64,000 nucleotides of DNA. It comes from a virus. Taxonomy: Duplodnaviria > Heunggongvirae > Uroviricota > Caudoviricetes. Position numbers and translations under genes: made by a program. The notes below the pieces were generated by a model. It made no database searches. It saw only the letters and a program-made list of their open reading frames with translations, and had not been told where the DNA came from. Positions 29,917-58,600 of the stretch are shown one piece after another (positions within the stretch are counted from its first letter, which is position 1; the number at the start of each line of letters is the position of its first letter). Location of the stretch: IMG/VR virus record IMGVR_UViG_3300031087_000527, positions 145,384 through 209,383 of that record; one strand, 5' to 3'.

Positions 29917-31377
29917 ATGACGCAGACTTACTTTATTAAACACGATTATGACAGAACAGTTCAGCCGTTCTGGAATGAACAGTGTCTTAAAATATCTCAA
30001 AACCTTTTTCTCCCCTGCACCGAAAATAATATCCCTAATTTTAAAACTCATTACCTCTCTTCTTTGATCCGTAAGCTTACACCCGTTCATTCTTATCACT
30101 TTCCTTTATTCTTTAAATCTTATGTTATGTCTGCGCCTGATATTGTGGTTAAAGCCGTAAGGAAAGTGCGCTTTTATTTTACCTCGACTGAACAAAGACT
30201 TAAATATGAGCAAATGATGATGGTTGCTCGCAGAGCCTACAATCTTGCGGTTGATATGTGTAATAACAGAGAATTTATCGATGAGCAGGGGAAACCTGTT
30301 GATATCAGAATTCCCATCAGAGATAAAGTAAAAAAAGAAAGTGCTGAAAATAATTATGTTTTTGACACTAATGTCTGCGATCAGGCTGTCAGGATAGCTA
30401 AGTCTGAGTTTATCACTCTCTGTAAAAATAACAAAAAGAAGAAGAATACAACATTATTCACGAGTTTCTCACGACTAGGCTTCAAAAGCCGTAAAGACAA
30501 AAAACAGACCTTTTCCCATCCCCGGATGGGAAAAGAGGGTTCCGTCTGTATAAAATCGTTGGGAAGCATCAGGCTGACGGAAAAGCTGCCTGATGAATGC
30601 TATGGCAAAAATGTTGAGGTAACAATGGAGTATGGCAGATGGTTCATCTGCGTCCAGAAAAATATAGAGATAAAAGGAAACCGTTTAGATTGTTCCGAAA
30701 GCCAAGGGCCAAATAAAACGGTTTCTGAAAAAGAAGTGAAAGTGATTGCTCTTGATCCGGGAAGCAGGACGTTTTTAACAGGATTCAGCGAGAAAGAAGT
30801 TATCGTTTATGGTAAGGATTATTCTATAAAATGCTTACTACCATTGGCAAAGAAGATGCGTGAGCTGTATTCTTTGCGTGAGAGGTTAAAGAAGCATGAG
30901 CTATACAGAAAGGAAAGCCTGGATAATCCGCAGTGGATAAACGATACGTTTAGGCATATAGAAAACAGCCTGAATAGGCTGTCCTGTAAGCGTCAGGATC
31001 TTGTTAATCATCTGCACAGGACTGTAGTTTATGATATAGTGATGAGCTACGATGTGATTTATCTTCCTGATTTCGAAACCAAGTCTATGGTAAAGACTAA
31101 GGGGAGAAGAATAGGCCGTAAAGCTGTTCATAACATGCTTTCTCTGAGTCATTATATTTTTAAGGAATTTCTGCTGTGGACAGCAAAGAAATACGGTAAG
31201 GAAGTCATTATCGTTAACGAGAGTTATACGAGTAAAACCCAAAGCTGGAACGGAGTGGTAAATGAAAAGCTGGGATCATCGAGGTTGATGAAAGACGGCA
31301 AAAGAATAATAAACAGAGATATCAATGGTGCAAGGAATATTTACCTGAAGCACATATCTCAGTTAACTAACATTTAG
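29917..31377 (+). CDS. tnpB: TnpB-like RuvC nuclease (IS200/IS605 OrfB family), zinc-finger cysteines absent; alternative start 30127 gives 416 aa
   Basis: N-terminal VRKVRFYFTSTEQ (KFRLYPT.EQ-like). RuvC-I VIALDPGSRTF. RuvC-II YLPDFETKSM. RuvC-III NRDINGARNI. Where CxxC...CxxC is expected the sequence reads TSKTQSWNG...MKDGKRI with no cysteine. Confidence 0.85.
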   Translation: MTQTYFIKHDYDRTVQPFWNEQCLKISQNLFLPCTENNIPNFKTHYLSSLIRKLTPVHSYHFPLFFKSYVMSAPDIVVKAVRKVRFYFTSTEQRLKYEQMMMVARRAYNLAVDMCNNREFIDEQGKPVDIRIPIRDKVKKESAENNYVFDTNVCDQAVRIAKSEFITLCKNNKKKKNTTLFTSFSRLGFKSRKDKKQTFSHPRMGKEGSVCIKSLGSIRLTEKLPDECYGKNVEVTMEYGRWFICVQKNIEIKGNRLDCSESQGPNKTVSEKEVKVIALDPGSRTFLTGFSEKEVIVYGKDYSIKCLLPLAKKMRELYSLRERLKKHELYRKESLDNPQWINDTFRHIENSLNRLSCKRQDLVNHLHRTVVYDIVMSYDVIYLPDFETKSMVKTKGRRIGRKAVHNMLSLSHYIFKEFLLWTAKKYGKEVIIVNESYTSKTQSWNGVVNEKLGSSRLMKDGKRIINRDINGARNIYLKHISQLTNI

Positions 31378-36424: not shown

Positions 36425-37048
36425 ATGATTAAAGAAATGCTGCCAGTAAACCGTGGGCGTGTCGATGATGCGGATGCGGTGTTTTATAAAGAAAAGACAG
36501 GCCGTGACATCACTAAAACGGAACTTCGTCTATTGCCTTTGCTTCACCACATGTATATGACAACCGATCCCGTAAATGGAAATCGTATCAATCAGGAAGA
36601 GCATGTCATTTTGACAGCAATGAAAGATGCAGGCTTTATTGAATTTGGTCGCGCTCGCCGTATGGTCGGTTTTTACGATGTGAAGATGAGTAAAGAGTCA
36701 TGGAATGTGATCGTTAAAATGCTGTATGACACTTATGCGGCTAAAGTTAAAGAACAGCCTGAGATTAAAGGCTCTTATCAGGATTTGGTTGGTCGTGAGA
36801 TTGATCGCGATGAAATGACGGCTATTTTCAAGCTTTGCTATGCTGTTATGAATGGTGGCTATATTGATGAAAATGATCTCACTCAAAAAGTAATGGCGGC
36901 ATTCAATCGCTTCAGTAAAAAAGGTTTGATTTACTTTGCACCGCGAGGCCCGGAAGCTGAACGTTATAATGTAGCTATCACTGAAGTGATGTGGTATGCG
37001 ATTAACGAGGTGTTATTTGAAAACGTGGTAAAGAAAGAAGTAGAATGA
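36425..37048 (+). CDS. hypothetical protein (207 aa)
   Basis: AAAGAGGAT SD before the ATG at 36425. Confidence 0.75.
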   Translation: MIKEMLPVNRGRVDDADAVFYKEKTGRDITKTELRLLPLLHHMYMTTDPVNGNRINQEEHVILTAMKDAGFIEFGRARRMVGFYDVKMSKESWNVIVKMLYDTYAAKVKEQPEIKGSYQDLVGREIDRDEMTAIFKLCYAVMNGGYIDENDLTQKVMAAFNRFSKKGLIYFAPRGPEAERYNVAITEVMWYAINEVLFENVVKKEVE

Positions 37049-37089
37049 AATTAAAAAAGAAAAGGGAGCATAGCTCCCTTTTTTATTAA

Positions 37090-37290
37090 TTAACGATTAC
37101 TGTCATGATTTACAAACAGGCTTGAGTCGCCCTGAACTTCACCACGCTGTGCCTGATGTTGAACAAAAGCTTGATAGCTCTGAGTTGTCTGCATGTTCTC
37201 ATCACCGTTGCCCTGTGTTGCCTGAGCTGCGAATGAACCTGTAAGTAAAGCGATAGCTAAAGCGGAAACTGCAATTTTAGTGTTTTTCAT
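37090..37290 (-). CDS. small secreted protein (signal peptide)
   Basis: Minus-strand ATG preceded by AAGGAAAAC. N-terminus MKNTKIAVSALAIALLTGSFAAQA. Confidence 0.65.
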   Translation of the reverse strand: MKNTKIAVSALAIALLTGSFAAQATQGNGDENMQTTQSYQAFVQHQAQRGEVQGDSSLFVNHDSNR

Positions 37291-37606
37291 GTTGTTTTCC
37301 TTTTATGAAGTTAAAATATTATGTGATGTGCATCACATTTGTATAAGAATGATACGCTATGATTATAGAATGATCAAGGCCTTATGTTTGATGGAGATAG
37401 TCAAAAAAACTGAAGTGAAATGATCAAATAGTGCTATACATTGAGAATGAAAGTTGATATAGTGAGTCTACTGATTTGAAGAGAGGTAAAGCTATGTGGT
37501 CTTACTATTTCATGTCCTACTCAATTCAGCCAGCCGAGCAGGTTGTGTCTGAAAATAAACGTGTATCTTTTTGGCGTAAGTTTTTTAACTAACTAAGAGG
37601 TGTAAT

Positions 37607-37825
37607 ATGGCATATCCTAATAAACCACAGAATCAAAAACAGCGTCAGTCTCAGTCCAACAATCGTTCCCGTTCCTCTTCAGGTTCTCGTTCGAGTGGTG
37701 GTGGTTATAATAGCGGCCTGTATGATGGCTATGATTCGAATGATTATGGTAGCCGTGACGATGGTTGTAGCAATAGCTATTCGTCGAATAGCGATTCAAG
37801 TGGTTCGTGTGGTTCTTCAGATTAA
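37607..37825 (+). CDS. low-complexity Ser/Gly/Asn/Asp-rich small protein with basic N-terminus
   Basis: AAGAGGTG SD. ...RSRSSSGSRSSGGGYNSGLYDGYDSNDYGSRDDG... Confidence 0.6.
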   Translation: MAYPNKPQNQKQRQSQSNNRSRSSSGSRSSGGGYNSGLYDGYDSNDYGSRDDGCSNSYSSNSDSSGSCGSSD

Positions 37826-37869
37826 AAAATAGTTGAATGTCATGTTCTGGACTGCTATACTGTCATTAC

Positions 37870-37921
37870 GGTGAGGTTAGCCGGAACATGAAAGTAAATT
37901 TAATTAAATGAGGTTAGTAAA
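37870..37921 (+). repeat. partial copy of the tnpB-flank element, forming the 5' leader of a small basic protein gene
   Basis: GGTGAGGTTAGCCGGAAC...AAAGTAAATTTAATTAAATGAGG resembles copy 1 (GCCTTAGCCGGAAC...GGGTTTAATGAAGAG). Confidence 0.4.
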
Positions 37922-38071
37922 ATGCAAGGCTCTGCTGGCGTTCGTGTAGAAAAGTTTGGTAAAGATAAACGTGACAGTCGTGGTGGTGAGTTCGGTGGTA
38001 AACAGGATTCACGTAAAAAAGGCAAAGTTCAACGTGGAAAACGTCGTGATGACGAGCAAAGCGGTTTCTAA
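37922..38071 (+). CDS. small basic protein (49 aa), paralogue of 43402..43551
   Basis: GAGGTTAG SD. MQGSAGVRVEKFGKDKRDSRGG...KVQRGKRRDDEQSGF shares VRVEKFxK with its paralogue. Terminator GGCTGCTTCGGCAGCC follows. Confidence 0.55.
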   Translation: MQGSAGVRVEKFGKDKRDSRGGEFGGKQDSRKKGKVQRGKRRDDEQSGF

Positions 38072-38144
38072 GCTGTAAGGGCTGCTTCGGCAGCCTTCTC
38101 TTAAATAGTCTGAATTGGTATATTTAAACTATTAGGAGAGAAAA

Positions 38145-38570
38145 ATGATTAAAGTAGATTACGAACACTCTGAGAATTTTATTGACGAAAATGATATCTT
38201 CGTTGGTTTTAATACAGAGTTCCAATGCTGTGAAAACTTCGGTTGGTATTTTAAAGATAACGACTGTATCGACGATGCTCAGGCGTTGTCAGAGAATGAA
38301 GATGTTGTAAGTAAGATTGACTTTGATATGGAAGGATGGGTGTTTGATACCTCCTACTGTGAATGCAAATACTACGATACAAAGACATTTACTTCTGTTG
38401 ATGCTGTAGTCTTTCGTATAATCAAAGAAGCTCAAGAAAAGTTTCTGTTCTTGTTTAATGTAGGTAATGGCATGTATGCGCACGATTTTTTCTTCGGTGC
38501 ATGCAAAGATGCCCACGCCAATAAAGCATTAAGTGATAATCAAGTGATTATTGAACAAGGTTCAGTATAA
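38145..38570 (+). CDS. hypothetical protein (141 aa)
   Basis: TAGGAGAGAAAA SD. Terminator 38577..38599. Confidence 0.8.
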   Translation: MIKVDYEHSENFIDENDIFVGFNTEFQCCENFGWYFKDNDCIDDAQALSENEDVVSKIDFDMEGWVFDTSYCECKYYDTKTFTSVDAVVFRIIKEAQEKFLFLFNVGNGMYAHDFFFGACKDAHANKALSDNQVIIEQGSV

Positions 38571-38616
38571 ACAATAAAGCACCGAAAGGTGCTTTTTTTA
38601 CATCAGGAGAAAAAAT

Positions 38617-38913
38617 ATGATCGAACAAATGATGAGTATTAAGCATATTTATGCGGATATTGAGAAAAAAGAAAAAGAAGCTCGCTTACAAATATCCGAA
38701 AATAGCAAAGGTATTCAAGAAATAGCGGCTCTTTATGAGCCAGAGCGTATTTCTCTAATCAAAGAAGCGCAGTCCGCCTTAAAAGAACATGGCTTCCTAT
38801 GGGATACGAAAAACTTAAGTGTTATAATGGTCAAGTTTAAACCTCTTTCATGGCGTGATCATGTTTTCTTTGTTGAGCGACATATCGGTCGATGCCTTAC
38901 CAATGTAGCTTAA
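38617..38913 (+). CDS. hypothetical protein (98 aa)
   Basis: CAGGAGAAAAA SD. Confidence 0.75.
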   Translation: MIEQMMSIKHIYADIEKKEKEARLQISENSKGIQEIAALYEPERISLIKEAQSALKEHGFLWDTKNLSVIMVKFKPLSWRDHVFFVERHIGRCLTNVA

Positions 38914-39007
38914 ATAGTCATGTTAATTATACTAAACAGGAAAAGATATTTTGCTTATCATTTTCTATAATAGTATAATATACTAAACAACAAATGAGGA
39001 TACTACT

Positions 39008-39367
39008 ATGTTAAAGCCATCTGTTTCTGCAAATGATCTGAAAGTAAAAAATGAGGCCATCGAGAATGAAAAATACAGCAGCCTCAACGCCGCATTTAAT
39101 AATATCGAGACGAAGCTTAAAAATAAGATGGAAACAATGAAGCAGGCTATTAGCTCTGGAGAGGTTGTAGCTCATGTTAAAATGACTAGGCCGCTGCGTG
39201 AAAATGATCTGAAGGAACTTCAGGATGCTTATCATGGATCAGGATTCTCGGTTGAGATGAAACGGGAAGAAGAACTGCAGGATTATACAGGTCAGCCTAA
39301 CAGATTTGGCAACTATATTCCTGCAGAGTATGACACTGTTTACGTGCTTACAGTCAGGATGATATAA
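39008..39367 (+). CDS. hypothetical protein (119 aa)
   Basis: TGAGGAT SD. Terminator 39371..39393. Confidence 0.75.
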   Translation: MLKPSVSANDLKVKNEAIENEKYSSLNAAFNNIETKLKNKMETMKQAISSGEVVAHVKMTRPLRENDLKELQDAYHGSGFSVEMKREEELQDYTGQPNRFGNYIPAEYDTVYVLTVRMI

Positions 39368-39442
39368 AAAAGGCCCTACGGGGCTTTTTTGCTTTTTGTA
39401 TTTCATGTGGTAAAATGCTTGTATTAATAATAGGAGAGAGAT

Positions 39443-39592
39443 ATGTCAGAGCATTATGTGCTAACACAAGAAGAGCTTGAGCAACTAACGGAGATTGCTC
39501 AGGAGACTTCAGTAGAAGTTCCTCATGGTCTAAGTCGTGAGGAAAGGCGTGAATGGTCAAAAAAAGAGCTTGAAGCTAAAAAAGATGCCTGA
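39443..39592 (+). CDS. small ORF (49 aa)
   Basis: TAGGAGAGAG SD. Its stop overlaps the next ATG (ATGCCTGA). Confidence 0.5.
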   Translation: MSEHYVLTQEELEQLTEIAQETSVEVPHGLSREERREWSKKELEAKKDA

Positions 39593-39857
39593 TATACTGA
39601 AATCTATTAAGTCAGATCAGGTGTTTAATATGCAAAAGGTGAAATGTGTAGAGTCAGGCAATAAGAAATATGAAATGGTTTTAGAATACGGAGAAACCTT
39701 AAACACGATTTCTTTGTCGGTATCAGAAAAAGGCGAGCAAGTAGTTCGTTACCTGAATCAGTTTTTGAGAAATGTGTCGGATACTGATGTGTTTAAAACC
39801 ATGTTGAAACATAACTTAGGCGAAGCGGAGAGTGCTGAGCTTATCGGTCAAATCTAA
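39585..39857 (+). CDS. hypothetical protein (90 aa)
   Basis: Translationally coupled ATG inside the GTG-initiated track ORF 39537. Confidence 0.55.
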   Translation: MPDILKSIKSDQVFNMQKVKCVESGNKKYEMVLEYGETLNTISLSVSEKGEQVVRYLNQFLRNVSDTDVFKTMLKHNLGEAESAELIGQI

Positions 39858-39877
39858 GCCTCTTCGGAGGCTTTTTT
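39858..39877 (+). terminator. rho-independent terminator (GCCTCTTCGGAGGC plus TTTTTT), third identical copy
   Basis: Same hairpin as 14729 and 15261. Abuts the 3' end of the minus-strand ferredoxin gene. Confidence 0.65.
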
Positions 39878-40115
39878 AATAGATGGCTATTTCGATATCG
39901 GTCTTAGGCACCGTACAGCAAAGAAGGAACTCGCCTGATGGTTTATAAGCCAAGTCATCTTTGACCATCATAATCTCTCCTGAGATCAGTTTGCTGTGGC
40001 AAGCGCCACAAAATCCATCCATGCAATTAAACTCTACAATGATTTCTTTAGCTAAAAGATAGTGAAGCAACGATGTGTGATTAAAGTCGGTTATTTTGAC
40101 ATGAATGTTTCTCAT
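39876..40115 (-). CDS. plant-type [2Fe-2S] ferredoxin-like protein (79 aa)
   Basis: Minus-strand ATG preceded by GAGGAG. Cys pattern C-x4-C-x2-C...29 aa...C (CMDGFCGACH ... LLCC). Confidence 0.75.
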   Translation of the reverse strand: MRNIHVKITDFNHTSLLHYLLAKEIIVEFNCMDGFCGACHSKLISGEIMMVKDDLAYKPSGEFLLCCTVPKTDIEIAIY

Positions 40116-40209
40116 ACGTACTCCTCATTAAGTATTCATAGTATAACACGCTTTCCAGCCAACTAAAAACCAAAATAAAAAAGATTTCGCTATGCAATCA
40201 TAGTTCGTA

Positions 40210-40440
40210 ATGCTAGAATGGCTTTTCAAATCAAGGAATAGGGCAAGGCTAAAAATGACATTTGGAAACGTGGAGTGTTCTTGGTTCAAGATAATGTTGT
40301 TGTTTGCATCGTTTTTAATAGGTGGCTTCATGGCTATAGATGCTCCGGCAATTAACGTTGCTGATAATGTTATTCGCTTTCTTCAAGGAGGTTCTATTTC
40401 TTTTGTGATCTGCTGTGTGATCATGGCTTTCATGCCGTAA
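40210..40440 (+). CDS. small membrane protein (76 aa)
   Basis: AGGGCAAGG SD. Two hydrophobic segments. Terminator 40471..40491. Confidence 0.5.
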   Translation: MLEWLFKSRNRARLKMTFGNVECSWFKIMLLFASFLIGGFMAIDAPAINVADNVIRFLQGGSISFVICCVIMAFMP

Positions 40441-40601
40441 ACATAAAAAATGAAACATTAGTTTATATTAAGCACCTTCGGGTGCTTTTTTATTTGTATT
40501 ATTAAAATACATTAAAAATAATTATGTATAGCTATTGTTATATTGTATTTTTTTTATTACTTTCGAATTGTATTTCATTAACAATAAGGAAGAAAGTATA
40601 A

Positions 40602-41162
40602 ATGAAGATTTTTATTAGGAATAGAAAGTTAAAAGGATTTTCTTTGTTAGAGTTATTATTGGTTTTAGGAATAATAGCGGCGCTAATAGTGGCGGCTTTT
40701 ATTGTTTATCCTAAAGTAAGAACTTCGCAAATAGTTGACGCTGAATCTAAAAATATTGCGACCATTAGAGCAGGATTACTGGCTTTATATTCATCCACAA
40801 CGAATATAACAACAGTAAATAATACAGTAGGAATAAATGCGCAAATATTTCCTGATAATATGTTAGTTCAAAGTGGTGGAACAGTATCAGATGTGGTTAA
40901 TGGTTTTAAAGGTAAAGTAAAGTTGTCTGCTACAAATTATGCTTCCTATGGTAAGGTTGTGTTCAATATAAGTTATGCCAACGTCCCTCAAGATGCTTGC
41001 GTTAAGCTTGTAACAGCAGTTGCTCCAAGTATGTCTATGGTTAACATAGGCGGTAGTTATGCTAAAAGTGATTTATCTAATGTTGACTGGAGTGTGGCAA
41101 ATGCAGCGACAGCATGTAACTCTGCCGGAACAAGCTCAACGATTGTTTTTTCATTTTATTAA
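40602..41162 (+). CDS. type IV pilin/pseudopilin-like protein (class III prepilin signal)
   Basis: AAGGAAGAAAG SD. N-terminus MKIFIRNRKLKG|FSLLELLLVLGIIAALIVAAFIVYP matches the prepilin peptidase site G/F-x-x-x-E followed by a hydrophobic helix. Confidence 0.8.
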   Translation: MKIFIRNRKLKGFSLLELLLVLGIIAALIVAAFIVYPKVRTSQIVDAESKNIATIRAGLLALYSSTTNITTVNNTVGINAQIFPDNMLVQSGGTVSDVVNGFKGKVKLSATNYASYGKVVFNISYANVPQDACVKLVTAVAPSMSMVNIGGSYAKSDLSNVDWSVANAATACNSAGTSSTIVFSFY

Positions 41163-41273
41163 ATCCTTAATCATGATTATTTCTAAAAGGCATACTTTCG
41201 CGGTGTGCCTTTTTATTTGCGATTAGAATATTATTTATGTTATTATGCTATTACTATATAAGAGGGTATAAAA

Positions 41274-41822
41274 ATGAATACGACAACGAAAAAGCGTCCT
41301 AAAATAACTGAAGAGTTTGTTTATGCGAAATCTGAAGGTGAGCTGTTAGTAGAGGAGATGGAAAAACTGTCGGCTGCAGGTGTTGAACGTAGCAGTATGG
41401 GGCGCAATCATCCAAATGAGCGCGAGTTGCCAGTGAGAAAAAATGCTGACGGCTTGATTGATGTTCATTCATTTATTTCTGAAGCGCATTTTGAAGGCTA
41501 TATCAAGAAAGAGCTGGATCGTCCGGGCTTGTTCCCACTAAAGAAAAAATGGAATGTTGGTGGCACAGGTGCTGATGGCTATGGTGGGGAAACTGTTATA
41601 GAAGCTGAGCGCGAGCCTAAGTATCCTGAAGCTCTGTTAGATATTCTTGAGTTATTGCGTCCGAATATGACGGCTATACAGATTGAGCGCGTATTGTCTG
41701 GTTTGGAGTATTCAGAGCATACAGATACTGAAGTTGGCTATTACTACGACAAACACGATGTCATGATTCATGAGTATGAAACGCAAAGTTTACTTGAATC
41801 GCTGAAAAAGACATTCGGTTAA
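41274..41822 (+). CDS. hypothetical protein (182 aa), paralogue of 41901
   Basis: AAGAGGG SD. Shared C-terminal domain (KKW.VGG...). Confidence 0.85.
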   Translation: MNTTTKKRPKITEEFVYAKSEGELLVEEMEKLSAAGVERSSMGRNHPNERELPVRKNADGLIDVHSFISEAHFEGYIKKELDRPGLFPLKKKWNVGGTGADGYGGETVIEAEREPKYPEALLDILELLRPNMTAIQIERVLSGLEYSEHTDTEVGYYYDKHDVMIHEYETQSLLESLKKTFG

Positions 41823-41900
41823 AGTATTGCTAAAATAGTAATAGAAAAGCATATCAGTTTCTGGTATGCTTTTTTTATTGCATAAAACAAAGAGGTTAGC

Positions 41901-42263
41901 ATGATTGATATTAATAGCATTAAATATGCCGAAGAATTGGAAAAACTAGTTGAGGAAGAGTTGGGACGTAAAGTGTTCCCAATTGAAAAGAAATGGGTTT
42001 CCGGCGGTGTGGTTCGAGGTTGGACTGGTACTGAGTCTCGTATTCCTGCTGAAGCAGAGCCTTTACATGATCCAGAAGAATGGATTGATGTGCTTGAGGT
42101 GATTTGTCCTAATATTAATTTCCTCCAGTATAAGCGTCTGGAAAGTAGAGGCCTGTGGGATGAAGATACTGATAGTAGAAATGATTACTATGAATGCGAA
42201 GAATACAAGATCAAACGTCTGAATACCGAAAATCTCTTAGATGCCTTGAAATCCATTTTTTAA
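41901..42263 (+). CDS. hypothetical protein (120 aa), shorter paralogue of 41274
   Basis: AAAGAGG SD. Aligns with the C-terminal half of 41274. Confidence 0.8.
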   Translation: MIDINSIKYAEELEKLVEEELGRKVFPIEKKWVSGGVVRGWTGTESRIPAEAEPLHDPEEWIDVLEVICPNINFLQYKRLESRGLWDEDTDSRNDYYECEEYKIKRLNTENLLDALKSIF

Positions 42264-42274
42264 GTGAGAAAACC

Positions 42275-42718
42275 ATGAACATTAAAGTTGTCTTCATCGT
42301 TGGCTTACCCGGAGCAGGGAAGACAACTTTACTAAAACAAATGGGTGATGGTTTTTGTATTGATGATTTATCCATTAACCTGGATAAATTGGATAACTTT
42401 AAACAGAATCCAGAACCAGTCCTGTATATTGCTGATCCGACTCTATGCATGGCTACTCAGGAAAGGGCTGAAACTTCTTTGAAGAAGATGCTGGGTTCAG
42501 ATTTTACTGTTGAGTCATTTCAATGGTGCTTCTTTGAAAATGATTTAGAGGCTTGCTGGGCAAATGTTGAAGCGCGTCAAGATAAAAGGAAAATCGATAT
42601 TCATTTCGTGAAGCATCTCTTTCGCTGCTATGCTGAGAACTATGATCTGGATAAGCAAGAGCTAATTCCCGTTTACAAAGGAAATCAAAATGTTTCTAAA
42701 AAATCCAGAAAAATATAG
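42275..42718 (+). CDS. P-loop NTPase / nucleotide-kinase-like protein (147 aa)
   Basis: Walker A VVFIVGLPGAGKTTLLKQ. Start at 42275 within the track ORF 42194. Confidence 0.75.
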   Translation: MNIKVVFIVGLPGAGKTTLLKQMGDGFCIDDLSINLDKLDNFKQNPEPVLYIADPTLCMATQERAETSLKKMLGSDFTVESFQWCFFENDLEACWANVEARQDKRKIDIHFVKHLFRCYAENYDLDKQELIPVYKGNQNVSKKSRKI

Positions 42719-43118
42719 CTATACATTAACTCTGGTTGATTCTGATATGCCTGATTATAAAGGAGAAGACTATATCAGGGATTTCTTCTCGGTTGATGGG
42801 AATCTATTAATAACACAACACGATCATAATGATAAAATGATTAGTCCAGACGCTATGTTGTGGGCGACACCTTATACACGTCATGAGGTTAAAACCATTC
42901 ATGATATCAAAGCGGCTTTATCTTTAAAAAGTATTTTTGTGGATGACTGCTATGATGAATCAGTGATTCTTTCAGACCTCTCAGAGTCAGACACTTTTAT
43001 CACACTCTTTGGAGACAGGCCTGTAAGCGACTTGTCGGATGATACAATTGCGTATTACGTTAAAGGCAAGCCCATAAAAGTAAGCGCGTCTGAGTTTTTT
43101 GAGGAAGTATTGGCTTAA
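42690..43118 (+). CDS. hypothetical protein (142 aa)
   Basis: AAAGGAAAT SD. Overlaps the previous gene by 29 nt. Confidence 0.7.
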   Translation: MFLKNPEKYSYTLTLVDSDMPDYKGEDYIRDFFSVDGNLLITQHDHNDKMISPDAMLWATPYTRHEVKTIHDIKAALSLKSIFVDDCYDESVILSDLSESDTFITLFGDRPVSDLSDDTIAYYVKGKPIKVSASEFFEEVLA

Positions 43119-43259
43119 AAACAAGCAAACTAACACGATGATCTCAAATAATGCTTGAACCACAAAAAGGCGATTGCTATACTTATTTCACTGGTTAGGG
43201 CGCACGCCCATGTTTTTTAAAAGAAGATTGAAGCAACTAACACAACAAAATGCGGTAAT

Positions 43260-43288
43260 TTAATATAAAATTTGCAATTTTATATTAA
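43260..43288. repeat. perfect 29-bp palindrome TTAATATAAAATTTGCAATTTTATATTAA
   Basis: 13-bp arms around TGCA, 23 nt upstream of tnpB-flank element copy 3. Confidence 0.7.
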
Positions 43289-43311
43289 ATATATTATATC
43301 TTTTACTACAA

Positions 43312-43383
43312 TAGGTGCTTGGCCTTAATCGGAACTGCGATTTTAACAGGTTTTGTTGTGATCGTTGCGATTTAAATCAAGAG
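43312..43383 (+). repeat. solo copy of the tnpB-flank element (no tnpB), leader of a small basic protein gene
   Basis: TAGGTGCTTGGCCTTAATCGGAACTGCGATTTTAACAGGTTTTGTTGTGATCGTTGCGATTTAAATCAAGAG is collinear with 31375..31437, including the TAGGTGCTT start and the GTTG.G..CGTTGCG core. Confidence 0.6.
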
Positions 43384-43401
43384 ATAAATAAGGACGATAA
43401 A

Positions 43402-43551
43402 ATGTTAAACTCTTCTTCTATCCGCGTAGAGAAATTTGAGAAATCGAAGAAAATGGCTCGCAAAGAAGTCGTAGCTAAGCGAGATAATAAAAAATTGAAT
43501 AAGGTTGTTCGCGGTCGTCGTGAAGAACTAGAGCTTGAAGATGTTTATTAA
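43402..43551 (+). CDS. small basic protein (49 aa), paralogue of 37922..38071
   Basis: AAGGACGAT SD. MLNSSSIRVEKFEKSKKMARKEVVAKRDNKKLNKVVRGRREELELEDVY. Terminator GGTCGCTTAGCGGCC plus T-run. Confidence 0.6.
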   Translation: MLNSSSIRVEKFEKSKKMARKEVVAKRDNKKLNKVVRGRREELELEDVY

Positions 43552-43642
43552 AATAAAGGTCGCTTAGCGGCCTTTTTTATTGCTTTGGATTTCTGAAATC
43601 TGTATAATGACAACCATGTTAATGAACTCTATGGTGATTATG

Positions 43643-44266
43643 ATGGAAAAAGAACAATTTGGTGTTAGCCCTTCACATTGGGCAGGACTCAGTGAAGAAG
43701 AGCGCGAGCTTTATCGCATTATTCGTCCTATGCGCACTTGCAATTATAGTGTGACCGTCGAGCTTCATAATGTTAAGCGTGAGCTTGCGCGTCAAGCTGA
43801 GCAGGCGGAGTTGGATGGTGGCGTGTTTAACCTGAATCCTGATTTCCAGCGCGGACATGTATGGTCCCTTGAAAAACAGATTGGCTATGTAGAGAACCTG
43901 CTTCGGGGAACGGCTCCAATTGAAATCAAGTTCAACTGTGCTAAGTTTCATGATTTTAACGCTGAGGCGACGGGAATGCATGGCTATGATATGGTCTGTG
44001 TTGATGGCCTGCAGCGTTTAACCGCCGTTGTGGATTTCATGGATGGCAAGTTCAAGCTTTTTGATGGGCGATATGATGAAACATCACTGCTTAAAACAGC
44101 CTTTTCACCACGCCGTAAGCATCTCCTGTTCCAGATCTATGATGTGAAAGACTATGGTGATTTGATTCAGTTCTATCTGGATCTTAACACAGGCGGTGTG
44201 GTTCATGAAGAAAGTGAGCTTAATCGAGTGAGAAAGCTTCAACAGGATTATCAGTCAAGTAAATAA
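43643..44266 (+). CDS. DUF262 / ParB-like nuclease-domain protein
   Basis: TATAAT upstream. Motifs PDFQRGHVW and DGLQRLTA match the DUF262 (GmrSD N-terminal, ParB-like) signature. Confidence 0.75.
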   Translation: MEKEQFGVSPSHWAGLSEEERELYRIIRPMRTCNYSVTVELHNVKRELARQAEQAELDGGVFNLNPDFQRGHVWSLEKQIGYVENLLRGTAPIEIKFNCAKFHDFNAEATGMHGYDMVCVDGLQRLTAVVDFMDGKFKLFDGRYDETSLLKTAFSPRRKHLLFQIYDVKDYGDLIQFYLDLNTGGVVHEESELNRVRKLQQDYQSSK

Positions 44267-44296
44267 CTAAAAAGGCGAGGGATCGCCTTTTTATTT

Positions 44297-44866
44297 TTAG
44301 ATTTCGATGTTTTTGTTTGCGCAGAAAGTAATAAGTTGCTTATTAACCTGAAGCCATAAAGCATACTCTTTTGGTATATAAGCAAGATAAGTAATCGGAC
44401 TTTCTTTTATATTCAGTATTCTTGCACTAATAAAATCATTTTCAACAATAGTACTTTCTGATTTAAGTTTCTTGGCATGGGCTACAACGCGATTAAATAA
44501 GCTCTTATCTTTCTTATAATCTTCTATGTCTTCCTCAGAAAATGCAAACAAATGCACGCCTGACTCACAGGCTTTCTGTGGATAATCTTCATAGGGCTTG
44601 CCCATTAAAGCTGTTGCGCTTTCATCAGTAGGCAAATCCTCTTTAAATGCCTCAAACAAATCAAAATCACTATGATTAAGATACGTAAAGCCATCACCAT
44701 TAACAATGATGCTGCTAAGACCGTCATGAGATATTTTTGAAGAAAAAAGAACGCTGCGATGTGATTGCTCAGGATCTTTTTGATATTCATTAAAGAACTC
44801 TGCAGGATCGAAAGATTTAAGCACGTGTAAATCATTGTCTTTGATTGTAAATAAAATGGTATTCAT
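44297..44866 (-). CDS. hypothetical protein (189 aa)
   Basis: Minus-strand ATG at 44866 preceded by AAGGAGAT. Second gene of a minus-strand pair. Confidence 0.7.
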   Translation of the reverse strand: MNTILFTIKDNDLHVLKSFDPAEFFNEYQKDPEQSHRSVLFSSKISHDGLSSIIVNGDGFTYLNHSDFDLFEAFKEDLPTDESATALMGKPYEDYPQKACESGVHLFAFSEEDIEDYKKDKSLFNRVVAHAKKLKSESTIVENDFISARILNIKESPITYLAYIPKEYALWLQVNKQLITFCANKNIEI

Positions 44867-44922
44867 GATATATCTCCTTTTAAGTATGTTGAGTATAAAA
44901 TAAGCAAAGGTTAAAAACAAAT

Positions 44923-46383
44923 TTACTTATTTGGAGAAAAGAGTAGGTTTTCAATTTTCATTAAACGCTTGGGCATTTCAGGATCGAAAAAGAGACTATC
45001 AGCTATTCGTGCGCAAAACTCATGAGGTGTCATAAAGTAGTTATAGTGATGAGGATTACGGCAATCAATCTCTTTTTTTATAGTGTGAGTAAATGAAGAA
45101 ATATCCACATCAAAATAATGGTAATAAGATAAATCAATGTCGAGTATTTCTGAAATGAAAGGTTCGTATTGTATTAAAGCTTGTATTTTTTCCATCAGTT
45201 TACTTTCAGCATTTAATATTTTTTGTATGGCAGAAAAATAAAGGCGATACATTAGAATATTAGAAGGTGAAATTTTAAGTGTTATTGATGAGAGATTTAA
45301 ATAAAGAGAATTTTTATTTCTTTCATTAAGCTCTAATGCTTCAGGCAAGAATCGCGCTATAAGCTCCTCTAAGCGGTTCTTAAACATCTCGTAAGGCTTT
45401 GTGTTATTATTTGATAACGTGCTCGCTATGAACGTTTTAAAGACGTTGCTGAGGCCAAACTGATTGGCGTGGTCGGATGCCATTATAAAATCATCCGGGA
45501 CAGTGCGATTTTCTCGGATTGATTCAAGTAAGTAATAGTCGAGAGCATGGAATCGTTCATGATGATAGGTTCTTTGAAGTTGCTCAATAAAGTCTTGTTT
45601 TTCATTAAAGGCATGAGCAATACATTTAAGGTTAAGTCCGACTTTACCACACTGGAATGCGCCATGATCCTGATTAAAGTTCTTAGCTGTATTATAAATA
45701 AGAAAGTTTTTATCTGTGTTGAGATGAAGATGAATATTACCATACAGGCCAACACGGTGATGACTTTGATAAAGCTCAGCGAGACTGCTAAAAGCACGGT
45801 TAATATCATCAAATGCTTCATTGGTTATGCTGTAATGCTCCGGTGCATGGATAGAGCCAAATTGATAGCGATGAAGTAGATTATAGGCTTTGAGACTATT
45901 ATCCGAAAAAGAAGAGTAGTGCTCCGAAGTTGCTTTTATTTGTTGATGAAGGTAGGCATCATCATAATCCTGAGTCGTTTGGGTCAGCAGAGTGTTGGTT
46001 TCAAAAATGGATTTTTTCAAATAATAATGGGCATTTTTGTAGTTCTCTTTAAATAAAATATAGAAAGAAGATTCTCGTTCTTTAATTAATGTCAGCATTT
46101 CAGTAATAGATTGGCTTTGTATTATAAGGTGAGCTAACTTTTCATCTTTTTTCTGAACTTCTGATAAGTGACTGTAGCTGAGTTTATTATGAGCAAGAGG
46201 TAAAAGGTTATATTGAAAAAAGTAAGATTTTACAAAAAGAGATTTGGCAAGATTAAATCCTCGGAGACCAAAGAGCTTAATCAGGTTAGTTAAGTCTGTT
46301 TTGTTATCCTGAGAATAAATAGCAAAAGCGGATTCCATTGTGTTAAGATAATGCTCAAGATAATAGTTTTTAATAACGTGCAT
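44923..46383 (-). CDS. hypothetical protein (486 aa)
   Basis: Minus-strand ATG at 46383 preceded by AAAGGAG. Confidence 0.8.
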   Translation of the reverse strand: MHVIKNYYLEHYLNTMESAFAIYSQDNKTDLTNLIKLFGLRGFNLAKSLFVKSYFFQYNLLPLAHNKLSYSHLSEVQKKDEKLAHLIIQSQSITEMLTLIKERESSFYILFKENYKNAHYYLKKSIFETNTLLTQTTQDYDDAYLHQQIKATSEHYSSFSDNSLKAYNLLHRYQFGSIHAPEHYSITNEAFDDINRAFSSLAELYQSHHRVGLYGNIHLHLNTDKNFLIYNTAKNFNQDHGAFQCGKVGLNLKCIAHAFNEKQDFIEQLQRTYHHERFHALDYYLLESIRENRTVPDDFIMASDHANQFGLSNVFKTFIASTLSNNNTKPYEMFKNRLEELIARFLPEALELNERNKNSLYLNLSSITLKISPSNILMYRLYFSAIQKILNAESKLMEKIQALIQYEPFISEILDIDLSYYHYFDVDISSFTHTIKKEIDCRNPHHYNYFMTPHEFCARIADSLFFDPEMPKRLMKIENLLFSPNK

Positions 46384-55181: not shown

Positions 55182-56288
55182 ATGCTTGCATTTGGTAAAA
55201 AGACAATGTTCAAAGAACAGGCTGTGGCTACGAGTAGAGCGAAAATAAAACGTAATTTTTTGAAGAATTTTTGCGTTGGGACTATGGTTTTAGTTTGTGG
55301 ACTGGTCTCTTATGATGTTGGTGTTACAGCATCAAATATTAACCATATAAATAATATGGCTGAATATAAGATACAAAATCAGAAATCTCTGGATAATTAC
55401 AGTACCTTTAAAGATCGAGTGATGGCAGTTCCTTATTCGGATGCGCAGTTCAAAAAAGATTTAACCACATTTGAATATATGTATGGTTATAAAGGCTCGG
55501 ATAGCCCCGTTTATAAAAAAATAATAGAGGATGAGAAAAAAAGTTTAAACGTATTATTATATCAAAACTTAGCTAAGGATAATGCTAACAATTTCTATTC
55601 TGATTTATACACTATGACTAAAAGTTATACATTAAAAGATTATATAAATAGAAACAGTGTCGGTCATAAAAAATTTACAGATGATGTCTCAAAGGTGCAA
55701 GGTAAGCATGAAATAGCAGCCATCAAGTATGAAGATGTATTTAATATGAATCAGAAAGAAAGGATTGCTAATATGGCATCCCAAACACTAGGATATTATT
55801 ATAGTAATATCGATAATAAAATGTATCAAAACTTCAGAAATTTACTGGTCGAAAAAGGTTTTAGTGCTAATGCTTATTTTCCTGATAAGGAAAAAGCAGG
55901 AAAATACCATGACCTTTATTATGATTATTTGTATAACTATGAGATGTCTTCTGAAAAGTTGGCTATAAGACAGGATTTCTATGATGATGTTTATAAAAAT
56001 AATCAAACTATCAGGCAATATTATGAGCAAGGCGATTTCAAAAAACTGCGAGAGCTATTTAAAATAGGTAATGGTTTTGCTCAAATAGCAATAACTGATT
56101 ATATCAATGACACAAAAGAAAATAGCAATTTGGGAGAGCCTTTTTATCATCGTTTAGCTCAGCACTTCGAAATGCATCCTGATCTTAAAAAACCCGCTAA
56201 GGTTTACGAAGAGTATACTGGTTCAACTTCTCCAGAAAAGAAAGGCCTCTATGACAGAAGTATTGATACATTTTTGTATATGCCATGA
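55182..56288 (+). CDS. signal-anchored paralogue 1 of 6 (368 aa): basic N-terminus, one TM helix, about 300-aa extracytoplasmic domain
   Basis: AAGGAGACAAAT SD. Motifs VPYSDAQFKKDL, YY..GD.KKLRELFKIGNGF and YTGS.SPEK shared with the next five ORFs. Confidence 0.85.
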   Translation: MLAFGKKTMFKEQAVATSRAKIKRNFLKNFCVGTMVLVCGLVSYDVGVTASNINHINNMAEYKIQNQKSLDNYSTFKDRVMAVPYSDAQFKKDLTTFEYMYGYKGSDSPVYKKIIEDEKKSLNVLLYQNLAKDNANNFYSDLYTMTKSYTLKDYINRNSVGHKKFTDDVSKVQGKHEIAAIKYEDVFNMNQKERIANMASQTLGYYYSNIDNKMYQNFRNLLVEKGFSANAYFPDKEKAGKYHDLYYDYLYNYEMSSEKLAIRQDFYDDVYKNNQTIRQYYEQGDFKKLRELFKIGNGFAQIAITDYINDTKENSNLGEPFYHRLAQHFEMHPDLKKPAKVYEEYTGSTSPEKKGLYDRSIDTFLYMP

Positions 56289-56410
56289 AGATATTTTTTT
56301 CTATTAAATTCTTAAAGAACCACTCGTTGGTTCTTTTTGTTTACATAATAAATTTGGTATATTATCAGCAAAAATAGTATTATTACACTATGATAAAATG
56401 AGGACTATCT

Positions 56411-57502: not shown

Positions 57503-57511
57503 GAGGCTAAA

Positions 57512-58585: not shown

Positions 58586-58600
58586 ATAAGGGTTAAATAA

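What the first reader, a model, noticed from the sequence alone, without database searches (positions are those of the whole stretch)
39876..41162. Type IV prepilin-like protein next to a 2Fe-2S ferredoxin
ORF 40602..41162 starts MKIFIRNRKLKG|FSLLELLLVLGIIAALIVAAFIVYP, a class III prepilin signal with the G/F cleavage site and E at position +5. This is a pilin or pseudopilin that a phage could use to cap, block or hijack host type IV pili or the type II secretion system. Immediately upstream on the opposite strand lies a 79-aa plant-type ferredoxin (C-x4-C-x2-C...C), of the YfaE type that in bacteria services ribonucleotide-reductase cofactor assembly, yet no nrd genes are in the window.
Basis: partly seen in the sequence, partly recalled or inferred. 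Interest (0 to 1): 0.55.

Follow-up and report, generated by a model that had tools for sequence, protein, structure and literature searches.

The report
Orphan type IVb pilin on megaplasmid
The gene is a real, intact pilus-subunit gene, but it most likely sits on a giant enterobacterial plasmid of the recently described "pMEGA" kind rather than on a phage, where it is one of many spare copies of the plasmid's own pilus subunit; the small ferredoxin next to it is probably an unrelated neighbour.

Summary
Both observations hold. ORF 40602-41162 is a complete prepilin: a 12-residue leader ending in Gly, then Phe+1 and Glu+5. It matches Pfam PilS, and its predicted fold matches only type IVb major pilins (CofA, TcpA, S. 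Typhi PilS). ORF 39876-40115(-) is a four-Cys 2Fe-2S ferredoxin, 35% identical over its full length to E. coli YfaE. No nrd genes are in the window.

The phage premise does not hold. The window has no match in phage records, and its relatives lie on 0.87-1.37 Mb contigs. Gene content fits the pMEGA megaplasmids of Enterobacteriaceae (bioRxiv 10.1101/2025.09.30.679422): scattered tRNAs, TnpB, ankyrin, MCP and tandem paralogues. That preprint already reports 7-16 pilin copies per genome beside a Dot/Icm secretion system and an R64-like type IVb pilus machine. I found that machine in a relative (L051); its pilin's assembly helix differs from this one by one residue in 27.

Best reading: a solitary, separately transcribed alternative major subunit for the plasmid's own pilus. 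It is under strong purifying selection. Its helix is conserved among paralogues while its head varies.

The ferredoxin-pilin pair sits at different sites in two lineages, but I found no functional link. This is a new member of a known kind; modest interest.

The parts
40602..41162 (+). Prepilin gene, 186 aa. The leader M1-G12 is encoded by 40602-40637. The mature type IVb major pilin F13-Y186 is encoded by 40638-41159, followed by the stop codon 41160-41162.
   Evidence: Pfam PilS and N_methyl. G-1/F+1/E+5 and Cys133/Cys172 are invariant. AlphaFold2 model with pLDDT 86 matches CofA, TcpA and PilS. dN/dS is about 0.065 against the orthologue.
40470..40487 (+). Terminator-like hairpin with a UUCG loop and a T-run upstream of the pilin gene. 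It separates the pilin from the preceding + strand small ORF.
   Evidence: Terminator scan. It is one of six GCNNCTTCGGNNGCTTTTT sites in the window, all on the + strand, where 0 are expected by chance.
41185..41213 (+). Hairpin with a 12-bp stem and a U-rich tail, 22 nt after the pilin stop codon. It is the likely terminator of a monocistronic pilin unit.
   Evidence: RNA fold of 41160-41225: -15.7 kcal/mol, z = -3.5 against shuffles.
39876..40115 (-). YfaE-like [2Fe-2S] ferredoxin, 79 aa, with Cys31, Cys36, Cys39 and Cys66/67.
   Evidence: Pfam Fer2. NCBIfam YfaE 66 bits against a cut-off of 75. 35% identity to E. coli YfaE. The Cys residues are conserved in all orthologues, and dN/dS is 0.065 against L007.
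40330..40440 (+). Small hydrophobic ORF between the ferredoxin and the pilin. It is 36 aa from this ATG and up to 76 aa if started at 40210. Coding status is uncertain.
   Evidence: Listed. Called as a 36-61 aa gene in the same-lineage loci L007, L029 and L030. The clade-2-like relatives have only a 226-bp ferredoxin-pilin spacer with no gene called in it. No family hit.
39856..39873 (+). Terminator-like hairpin that ends the upstream + strand genes. It abuts the 3' end of the ferredoxin gene.

Best explanation
The window is a piece of a giant, low-GC conjugative plasmid of Enterobacteriaceae related to the published pMEGA elements; it is not a phage. ORF 40602-41162 is one of that plasmid family's many dispersed copies of a PilS/BfpA-type type IVb major pilin.

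Proposed mechanism:
1. The gene is transcribed as its own unit, bracketed by terminators.
2. The prepilin inserts into the inner membrane, and a prepilin peptidase cuts it after Gly12. The source of that peptidase, plasmid or host, was not found.
3. The mature subunit is polymerised by the plasmid's own R64-like type IVb pilus machine (secretin, PilO/P-like proteins, T2SSE ATPase, T2SSF platform, PilT-like ATPase), which lies beside the Dot/Icm transfer genes.
4. This is possible because the assembly helix is almost identical to that of the machine-linked pilin.
5. The variable globular head then gives the filament a different surface. That could alter which recipients or surfaces the pilus binds, or let it escape pilus-specific phages or antibodies.

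Shown here: the protein's identity, intactness, selection and fold; the existence of paralogues; and the presence of the machine in a relative. Inferred: that this orphan copy is processed and assembled by that machine, and what the variation is for.

The ferredoxin is a YfaE-like electron carrier. It probably serves a di-iron or other redox enzyme encoded elsewhere on the replicon and is only a neighbour of the pilin.
For: Replicon:
- No phage match.
- 12-13 scattered tRNAs in 64 kb.
- TnpB, ankyrin, MCP, HflK/C-like Band_7 and M49 peptidase genes, plus six tandem paralogues. These are the content classes listed for pMEGA.
- Pilin cluster members lie on contigs of 1,369,952, 982,256 and 866,249 bp. 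pMEGA5 is 1,369,842 bp.
- The preprint reports pilin subfamily SF2096 at 7-16 copies per genome, and a pilin subfamily among the highly expressed genes in a metatranscriptome.

Pilin:
- PilS family membership and a type IVb fold.
- Processing motif and disulfide Cys pair invariant.
- dN/dS of 0.065 overall and 0.02 in the alpha-1 helix.
- Among paralogues the alpha-1 helix is 83-94% identical while the head is 44-66% identical.
- Solitary copies lie beside unrelated genes such as MutS and a TROVE-domain protein.

Machine:
- Locus L051 has 32% GC and comes from the same assembly as a clade-2-like contig.
- It encodes, in order: DotB-like, TcpQ-like, secretin, two ORFs of 493 and 277 aa without a family hit, T2SSE, T2SSF, PilS pilin, PilT-like, and further on IcmW.
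- This is the order of pMEGA4 genes 53 to 35 in the paper's Table S8.
- Its pilin starts FSLLELLLVLGIIAALVVAAFIVYPKV, one residue different from the window pilin.
Against: - The window itself contains no pilus machinery, relaxase or replication gene. The link to a conjugative megaplasmid rests on relatives and on a preprint.
- The window has 37% GC, against 26-29% for the published pMEGA clades. It is at best a separate lineage.
- A relative is filed as viral in IMG/VR, and three window ORFs hit PHROGs of unknown function strongly.
- No prepilin peptidase was found in L051 or in the parts of the supplement that are held.
- No promoter was predicted in the 110 bp upstream of the pilin.
- Nothing shows that this particular copy is expressed or assembled.
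Confidence: 0.6

Rival explanations
1. Interference or exclusion pilin. The orphan pilin is made in order to enter, and thereby alter or poison, the type IVb pili of co-resident elements (IncI-type plasmids, ICEs, PilS/PilV islands) or of the host. This would block pilus-dependent phages or competing conjugative elements.
For: - Its assembly helix is nearly identical to that of ordinary Enterobacterales PilS pilins, so cross-assembly is plausible.
- A prophage-encoded FimU-like pilus component is reported to give anti-phage defence (PMC12952977, seen).
- Neighbouring ORFs give weak hits to defence-related domains such as GmrSD_N/NsnA and an AAA protein.
Against: - It is a complete major pilin with intact Glu+5 and the disulfide pair, and its head domain is under purifying selection. 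This is what an assembling structural subunit looks like.
- PADLOC finds nothing for it.
- The element family has its own machine.
- 7-16 copies per genome is hard to explain by interference alone.
Confidence: 0.15
2. Same machine, different purpose. The paralogues build bundle-forming, adhesive pili for colonisation of gut or plant surfaces and microcolony formation, as BFP, CFA/III and TCP do, rather than serving conjugation.
For: - The closest folds are the colonisation pili CofA and TcpA.
- Many homologues carry a Pfam Bundlin hit.
- The elements occur in gut and plant-associated samples.
Against: - The machine lies within the Dot/Icm transfer region in an R64-like order.
- The closest cellular homologues sit beside MobA, TraD and the shufflon adhesin PilV, which are conjugation contexts.
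- The two purposes are not mutually exclusive.
Confidence: 0.15
3. One reading: a phage-encoded pilin or pseudopilin used to cap, block or hijack host type IV pili or the type II secretion system.
For: - IMG/VR files a 341-kb relative as a viral contig.
- Scattered tRNAs and many small unknown ORFs resemble jumbo phages.
- Some ORFs hit PHROGs of unknown function.
Against: - No similarity to any of 50,697 phage records.
- No structural PHROG among the ORFs tested.
- Relatives reach 1.37 Mb.
- The preprint finds relaxases, Rep proteins, a T4SS and no phage proteins in closed genomes.
- Pseudopilin models fail their cut-offs.
Confidence: 0.04
4. The ferredoxin and the pilin form a functional two-gene module, for example redox-dependent pilin maturation or an electron-conducting pilus.
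For: The pair is adjacent and divergent in two lineages although it sits at different genomic sites. In clade-2-like relatives it lies between tRNA genes. In the window lineage it lies at the site where relatives have two tandem pilins.
Against: - A terminated small ORF lies between the two genes in the window.
- The intergenic DNA is not conserved.
- The other pilin paralogues seen here in the fetched loci have no ferredoxin beside them.
- The ferredoxin carries a homopolymer frameshift in two assemblies where the pilin is intact.
- A recombination breakpoint falls inside the ferredoxin gene.
- Known YfaE biology concerns ribonucleotide reductase (established knowledge).
Confidence: 0.04

Closest known systems
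pMEGA megaplasmid pilin subfamily SF2096 (Guitor et al., bioRxiv 10.1101/2025.09.30.679422)
   Same: - Type IVb (CofA/PilS/BfpA-like) pilins present in 7-16 copies per genome.
- Most copies are dispersed and a few lie beside a type IVb pilus machine within the Dot/Icm region.
- The genome setting is the same: low GC, many tRNAs, TnpB, ankyrin, MCP and tandem paralogue clusters.
- The window pilin is 86% identical to a protein found on contigs of pMEGA size.
   Different: - The window and its closest relatives have 36-38% GC, against 26-29% for the published clades.
- They carry the ferredoxin-pilin pair at a different site.
- The YfaE-like ferredoxin is not mentioned in the parts of the paper that are held.
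PilS, major pilin of the IncI1 plasmid R64 thin pilus, and the S. Typhi SPI-7 PilS
   Same: - Same Pfam family (PF08805) and same fold (3fhu).
- The pilus machine is linked to a Dot/Icm-like transfer system.
- In R64 the thin pilus supports mating in liquid (own knowledge).
   Different: - R64 has one pilS inside the pil operon and varies the tip adhesin PilV through the shufflon (own knowledge). Here the major pilin itself is multiplied and scattered.
- No shufflon repeats or recombinase lie near this copy.
- Identity to the PilS-family pilins found on PLSDB plasmids is 34-52%.
BfpA (EPEC bundlin), CofA (ETEC CFA/III), TcpA (V. cholerae)
   Same: Type IVb major pilin architecture: a long alpha-1 helix, an anti-parallel sheet and a C-terminal disulfide-bounded region. 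The 12-residue leader is similar in length to that of BfpA (own knowledge).
   Different: - Those are single major subunits in dedicated virulence operons.
- Structure-based identity to CofA, TcpA and PilS is only 12-20%.
- Phe at +1 is a type IVa-like trait (own knowledge).
Prophage-encoded FimU-like pilus protein giving anti-phage defence (PMC12952977)
   Same: A mobile element carries a lone type IV pilus component without the machine.
   Different: That protein is a minor-pilin mimic that alters the host pilus. This one is a major pilin on an element whose family encodes its own machine.
E. coli YfaE
   Same: About 80 aa, with the same C-x4-C-x2-C...CC pattern and C-terminal DIEI motif, and 35% identity over the full length.
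   Different: It is not next to nrdAB and scores 66 bits against the 75-bit equivalog cut-off.

Membership tests
Type IV prepilin (class III signal peptide) | Short basic leader ending in Gly, followed by a hydrophobic helix of about 20 residues with Glu at +5 | tested here: met
   MKIFIRNRKLKG|FSLLELLLVLGIIAALIVAAFIVYP. G12, F13 and E17 are invariant in 16- and 60-sequence alignments.
Type IV prepilin (class III signal peptide) | Match to the N-terminal cleavage/methylation models above their cut-offs | tested here: met
   PF07963 scores 24.2 bits against 21.2. TIGR02532 scores 20.0 bits against 16.3.
Type IV prepilin (class III signal peptide) | Cleavage and N-methylation by a prepilin peptidase | not testable with these tools
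   No peptidase A24 gene was seen in the window or in L051. This needs biochemistry.
Type IVb major pilin, PilS/BfpA family (PF08805) | Family model match over the globular domain | tested here: met
   PilS scores 77.2 bits against a cut-off of 22, covering residues 46-183.
Type IVb major pilin, PilS/BfpA family (PF08805) | Type IVb fold and a C-terminal disulfide pair | tested here: met
   The AlphaFold2 model has pLDDT 86. The top 16 PDB hits are all type IVb major pilins. Cys133 and Cys172 are invariant.
Type IVb major pilin, PilS/BfpA family (PF08805) | Long leader (15-30 aa) and a non-Phe residue at +1, the classical type IVb traits (own knowledge) | tested here: not met
   The leader is 12 aa with Phe at +1. 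All close homologues share this, including the enterobacterial 'type 4 pilus major pilin' proteins, so it is a trait of the subfamily.
Type IVb major pilin, PilS/BfpA family (PF08805) | Gene located in an operon with the assembly ATPase, platform protein and secretin | tested here: not met
   No such genes lie within 64 kb. This is a solitary copy. The operon exists in a relative, L051.
Type II secretion pseudopilin (GspG-K) | Equivalog model match above the cut-off | tested here: not met
   GspH scores 20.6 bits against 80, GspJ 19.2 against 64.85 and GspG 13 against 88.85. Only the N-terminal helix aligns.
YfaE (class Ia RNR maintenance ferredoxin) | NCBIfam equivalog score | tested here: not met
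   NF007985 scores 66 bits against a cut-off of 75. It is still by far the best model, covering profile positions 10-80 of 81.
YfaE (class Ia RNR maintenance ferredoxin) | Four Cys ligands, about 80 aa, full-length similarity to E. coli YfaE | tested here: met
   35% identity, E = 5e-20, Cys residues aligned.
YfaE (class Ia RNR maintenance ferredoxin) | Genetic linkage to nrdAB | tested here: not met
   tblastn with E. coli NrdA and NrdB finds nothing in the window or in the pMEGA-like loci held at that point. The rest of the replicon was not available. pMEGA4 is annotated with NrdE and NrdF/NrdI.
Plant-type [2Fe-2S] ferredoxin (PF00111) | Family model match and Cys ligands | tested here: met
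   Fer2 scores 34.6 bits against 21. The alignment to the 4wqm ferredoxin domain includes the Cys residues.
pMEGA-type Enterobacteriaceae megaplasmid | Replicon larger than 1 Mb with a T4SS, relaxase and Rep proteins, and no phage structural genes | tested here: inconclusive
   Only 64 kb are in hand. Relatives carrying 86-99% identical pilins lie on contigs of 0.87-1.37 Mb. A Dot/Icm plus type IVb pilus locus was seen in relative L051.
pMEGA-type Enterobacteriaceae megaplasmid | Many tRNAs, about 80% hypothetical genes, and multicopy pilin, TnpB, ankyrin and tandem paralogue clusters | tested here: met
   compared with the paper's description.
pMEGA-type Enterobacteriaceae megaplasmid | GC content of 26-29% | tested here: not met
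   The window has 37.3% GC and same-lineage loci have 36-38%. Clade-2-like loci have 28-32%.
Bacteriophage genome | Similarity to known phages or phage structural families | tested here: not met
   No megablast or tblastn match in INPHARED. The only PHROG hits are to unknown-function families and to a ferredoxin family.

The most novel reading that the evidence does not exclude
The dispersed pilins form a repertoire of interchangeable major subunits. An invariant leader-proximal assembly helix lets one plasmid-encoded type IVb machine build pili with different surfaces, and the same conserved 5' segment promotes swapping of pilin heads between loci and between plasmids. This would be a way for a broad-host-range megaplasmid to vary recipient recognition or escape pilus-specific phages by multiplying the major pilin, rather than by shuffling the tip adhesin as R64 does.
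Probability: 0.3. Interest if true: 0.55.

Novelty: new member of a known kind. Interest (0 to 1): 0.3.

Why it matters
The result moves a supposed phage oddity to where it most likely belongs: a recently described class of megabase plasmids in E. coli, Salmonella, Citrobacter and their relatives.

It adds three details to that description:
- The spare pilins keep the assembly helix of the machine-linked pilin almost unchanged while their heads diverge.
- They are under strong purifying selection and appear to be transcribed as separate units.
- Pilin loci differ between lineages in which paralogue they hold.

If the copies really are alternative subunits of a conjugative pilus, they bear on how these very large plasmids reach many hosts. 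The ferredoxin is a small side issue: it may be a cofactor-maintenance protein for a ribonucleotide reductase carried elsewhere on the plasmid.

Tried and rejected
- Phage origin: no DNA or protein match in the phage collection.
- E. coli complete genomes: megablast of 20 kb found nothing. No closed copy of this lineage is there.
- PLSDB plasmids: only PilS-family pilins at 34-52% identity.
- GTDB representative genomes: nothing with the window pilin as query.
- Sequence search of the PDB with the pilin: only the N-terminal helix matched geopilins. The fold search was needed.
- Ferredoxin homologue search: it returned only six proteins, all from this plasmid lineage.
- NrdB scan of IMG/VR to ask whether the 341-kb relative carries class Ia RNR: swamped by phage NrdB and uninformative.
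- R64 by accession AP005147.1: not in the collection.
- Chimeric pilin idea, with the leader from the resident paralogue and the head from the ferredoxin-linked one. The leader is 7/12 identical to L012a against 3/12 for the orthologue, but the DNA alignment is too short and AT-rich to support it. I leave it as a hint only.
- Direct repeats flanking the ferredoxin segment (39855 and 40469): these are copies of a generic terminator design found six times in the window, not insertion scars.
- Shufflon-like inverted repeats near the pilin: none found.
- Defence-system models: nothing for the pilin or the ferredoxin.
Full report
**1. The observation**

Both reading frames are present exactly as described.

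The 186-aa product of 40602-41162 begins MKIFIRNRKLKG|FSLLELLLVLGIIAALIVAAFIVYP.
- It matches Pfam PilS (77.2 bits, cut-off 22) and N_methyl (24.2 bits, cut-off 21.2).
- It matches the TIGR02532 prepilin cleavage/methylation domain (20.0 bits, cut-off 16.3).
- In alignments of 16 and 60 relatives, Lys-2, Gly-1, Phe+1, Ser, Leu, Leu, Glu+5 and the two C-terminal cysteines (Cys133, Cys172) are invariant.
- A regular-expression scan and tblastn with 18 pilin paralogues show that it is the only pilin, and the only pilin remnant, in the 64 kb.

The 79-aa product of 39876-40115 on the minus strand is a ferredoxin.
- It matches Pfam Fer2 (34.6 bits, cut-off 21).
- Its best NCBIfam model by far is YfaE, at 66 bits, just below the 75-bit equivalog cut-off.
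- Against E. coli K-12 YfaE, fetched from NC_000913.3, it is 35% identical over the full length (E = 5e-20), with C-x4-C-x2-C...CC and the C-terminal DIEI motif aligned.
- tblastn with E. coli NrdA and NrdB finds nothing in the window.

**2. What kind of replicon this is**

The evidence points elsewhere.
- Megablast of 6 kb and tblastn of the pilin against 50,697 phage records gave no match.
- Of 16 window ORFs scanned against PHROGs, none hit a structural family. Three hit families of unknown function.
- The window is 37% GC, is transcribed almost entirely from the + strand, and has positive GC skew throughout.
- It carries 12-13 scattered tRNA genes.
- It encodes a peptidase M49, an ankyrin-repeat protein, an MCP signalling-domain protein, a TnpB, an HflK/C-like Band_7 protein, a GmrSD_N-domain protein and six tandem ~350-aa paralogues without any family.

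The pilin's nearest relatives point to very large contigs.
- The nearest relatives are 99% and 86% identical.
- Members of their 90%-identity clusters lie on contigs of 866,249, 982,256 and 1,369,952 bp.
- These relatives come from gut and environmental metagenomes, plus one NCBI assembly whose pilin is labelled Shigella flexneri.

[quoted passage not shown] The paper describes:
- circular pMEGA plasmids of 1.31-1.58 Mb;
- 26-29% GC, 104-208 tRNAs and about 80% hypothetical genes;
- a Dot/Icm-type T4SS, relaxases and Rep proteins, and no phage proteins;

Further points from the paper:
- pMEGA5 is 1,369,842 bp, almost the length of the longest contig that carries a cluster member.
- Table S8 lists, for pMEGA4, PilT (gene 42), pilins, PilC, a BfpD-like ATPase, an R64-type PilO, a secretin and DotB. 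It also lists five dispersed pilins.

The window's lineage is not identical to the published clades.
- The window and its near-identical relatives (L007, L008, L028-L030) are 36-38% GC.
- Syntenic loci of clade-2-like relatives are 28-32% GC.
- DNA identity between the two groups is about 66-84%.

I therefore read the window as a higher-GC relative of clade 2, not as a described pMEGA.

**3. What the pilin is**
- An AlphaFold2 model built on 60 homologues has mean pLDDT 86.
- Foldseek against the PDB returns only type IVb major pilins as significant hits: CofA in the ETEC pilus (9iuf, E = 8e-7, TM 0.68), TcpA (8uhf, 3hrv, 1oqv) and S. Typhi PilS (3fhu, 1q5f).
- Pseudopilin models (GspG/H/J) align only to the N-terminal helix and score far below their cut-offs.
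- The protein has the size of a major pilin, not of the large type IVb minor pilins.
- Named cellular homologues are 47-52% identical and are annotated "type 4 pilus major pilin" in Klebsiella, Escherichia, Salmonella, Citrobacter and others.
- Two of these were examined. They lie beside MobA/MobL, TraD and the shufflon adhesin PilV, which is a conjugation setting.

**4. The gene is functional and is one of a family**

*Selection.* Against its orthologue in the clade-2-like relatives (L002/L011) the mature part has dN/dS of about 0.065: 0.02 in the alpha-1 helix and 0.09 in the head. Synonymous sites are near saturation. Against L007 the ratio is 0.066.

*Copy number.* Relatives carry many copies.
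- One 341-kb IMG/VR contig has at least seven pilin-like genes at four separate places. These include a truncated 130-aa copy and a 310-aa prepilin-like gene.
- The metagenome that holds the window's own lineage (JGI 3300013307) has at least three, on two contigs.

*Pattern of divergence.* Between paralogues the alpha-1 helix stays 83-94% identical while the globular part drops to 44-66%, and the leader peptides differ freely.

*Genomic setting.* Several copies examined are solitary and lie next to unrelated genes such as MutS or a TROVE-domain protein; others form tandem pairs.

*Transcription unit.* In the window the gene is bracketed by terminator-like hairpins.
- Upstream is a UUCG-loop hairpin with a T-run at 40470-40487. 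It is one of six such sites in the window, all on the + strand, where none is expected by chance.
- Downstream is a 12-bp hairpin with a U-rich tail at 41185-41213, directly after the stop codon (z = -3.5).

The gene therefore looks like a monocistronic unit. The consensus scan predicted no sigma-70 promoter in the AT-rich 110 bp upstream.

**5. The machine**

A metagenome scan with the paralogue alignment returned locus L051. It has 32% GC and comes from contig OKEV01000023.1 (142 kb), in the same assembly as a clade-2-like contig that carries the 87% pilin.

L051 encodes, in order:
- a DotB-like T2SSE fragment;
- a TcpQ-like protein;
- a secretin;
- two ORFs of 493 and 277 aa with no family hit;
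- a 607-aa T2SSE ATPase;
- a T2SSF platform protein;
- a PilS-family pilin;
- a 337-aa PilT-like ATPase;
- further on, IcmW.

This is the order of pMEGA4 genes 53 to 35 in the paper's table. The machine-linked pilin begins FSLLELLLVLGIIAALVVAAFIVYPKV, one residue different from the window pilin over the first 27 mature residues.

A short 41%-GC contig (L071) carries a 93%-identical platform gene and a 74%-identical ATPase gene. It comes from a metagenome that also holds a locus (L100) 88% identical in DNA to a window-lineage locus (L099). This suggests that the higher-GC lineage has the machine too.

I found no prepilin peptidase in L051, and none is listed in the held parts of the supplement. 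Enterobacterial hosts have their own prepilin peptidases (own knowledge).

**6. Synteny and the ferredoxin**

The pair sits at different sites in the two lineages.
- In clade-2-like relatives (L001-L006, L011, L031-L038) the divergent ferredoxin-pilin pair lies between the equivalents of window positions 8716 and 9687. That places it between tRNA-Arg(CCT) and a tRNA cluster, next to the ankyrin and M49 genes.
- At the site syntenic to window 39.4-41.9 kb, those relatives instead have two tandem pilins, 55-65% identical to the window pilin, and no ferredoxin (L012, L016).
- In the window lineage the pair occupies that second site (L007, L008, L028-L030). The first site holds a different minus-strand ORF.

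So the two genes stay together while their location differs. I see five reasons not to read this as a functional link:
- A terminated small ORF lies between the two genes in the window.
- The intergenic DNA is not conserved.
- The other pilin paralogues seen here in the fetched loci have no ferredoxin beside them.
- Two assemblies show a homopolymer frameshift in the ferredoxin while the pilin is intact. This may be a sequencing error.
- A recombination breakpoint falls inside the ferredoxin gene. Identity between the window and L007 jumps from about 85-90% to 99-100% at about 40,000 and stays there to about 43,650.

The ferredoxin itself is conserved: all four Cys are kept and dN/dS is 0.065 against L007. 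Its partner is unknown here. pMEGA4 is annotated with NrdE and NrdF/NrdI. Whether this lineage has a class Ia reductase could not be tested, because the NrdB scan was swamped by phage genes.

**7. Mechanism, rivals and comparison**

Best-supported reading:
- The gene is an alternative major subunit for the plasmid's own R64-like type IVb pilus.
- It is made from its own transcription unit and processed at Gly12/Phe13.
- It is polymerised through an assembly helix that it shares with the machine-linked pilin.
- Its head gives the filament a different surface.

This differs from R64, where a single pilS is kept and the tip adhesin PilV is varied by the shufflon (own knowledge). It resembles organisms that keep several pilins with a common hydrophobic N-terminus, such as Haloferax PilA1-6 (own knowledge).

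The identity, intactness, selection, paralogy and the machine in a relative are shown. Processing, assembly and the purpose of the variation are inferred.

Rivals:
- An interference or exclusion role, analogous to the prophage FimU-like protein of PMC12952977.
- A colonisation role rather than a mating role.
- The phage reading.
- A ferredoxin-pilin functional module.

PADLOC finds nothing for the pilin or the ferredoxin.

**8. Verdict**
- The phage-hijack interpretation is not supported.
- The feature belongs to a family already noted in a 2025 preprint.
- What this analysis adds: placement in a higher-GC lineage; the helix-conserved, head-variable pattern under purifying selection; the solitary transcription unit; and the lineage-specific placement of a ferredoxin-pilin pair.
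- Interest is modest.

Noticed in passing
window 37000-45000 compared with L007/L008: DNA identity to the closest relative is about 85-90% up to about 40,000. It then jumps to 99-100% from inside the ferredoxin gene to about 43,650 and falls again. This looks like a recent recombination tract of about 3.6 kb between related plasmids, and it includes the pilin.
   Followed up: partly
window 9688-9764: ARAGORN calls a tRNA with a four-base anticodon (agaa), and Rfam scores it as tRNA at 47 bits. It could be a frameshift-suppressor-like or decoy tRNA. Rfam also finds a 13th tRNA at 3654-3727 that ARAGORN missed.
   Followed up: no
window 55182-61830: Six tandem paralogous ORFs of 350-368 aa on the + strand; the three scanned have no Pfam hit and the one scanned has no PHROG hit. 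They resemble the clustered multicopy families, possibly poly-immunity loci, described for clade 2 pMEGAs.
   Followed up: no
window 14731, 15262, 28437, 39858, 40472, 52682: A recurrent terminator design, GCNNCTTCGGNNGCTTTTT, with a UUCG tetraloop. There are six copies, all on the + strand, where none is expected by chance.
   Followed up: partly
L051 9974-10549 compared with L050, L052, L053, L083: The machine-linked pilin of the low-GC Dot/Icm plus type IVb pilus locus matches, at 92-97% in translated comparison, the pilin carried by four other metagenomic loci (two of them on >2-Mb contigs). L050, the one examined, has the ORF layout of the MobA/TraD/PilS/PilV islands (L026), which have no machine. 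Such islands might be mobilisable hitch-hikers that use the megaplasmid pilus.
   Followed up: partly
L002 18595-20561: Two tandem pilin paralogues lie next to a 531-aa GtrII-like membrane glycosyltransferase (PF14264), which hints at pilin glycosylation in the clade-2-like relative.
   Followed up: no
L035 and L036, 2540-2780: The YfaE-like ferredoxin is interrupted by a frameshift in an A/T homopolymer near its 5' end in two independent assemblies, while the adjacent pilin is intact. This may be real decay, phase variation or an assembly error.
   Followed up: partly
window 1-64000; L007, L028-L030: This lineage has 36-38% GC, against 26-29% for the two published pMEGA clades. It occurs in several metagenomes from different sources (JGI 3300013307, ENA, Logan). 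It may be a third, undescribed clade.
   Followed up: partly
window 41274-41822 and 41901-42263: The two ORFs downstream of the pilin (182 and 120 aa) look like paralogues: both contain a KKW..GG motif and a shared C-terminal segment. They have no family hit. The clade-2-like relative has only one copy at this site.
   Followed up: no
window 29917-31377: A TnpB (Cas12f1-like TNB domain) gene. A TnpB sits at a different position in some relatives (L001 16118-17266) and is absent from others (L002), so it is mobile within the family.
   Followed up: no
L023 9998-10390 and L024 10004-10936: The 341-kb IMG/VR relative also has a truncated 130-aa pilin and a 310-aa prepilin-like gene next to MutS. 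The family therefore includes decaying and enlarged members.
   Followed up: partly
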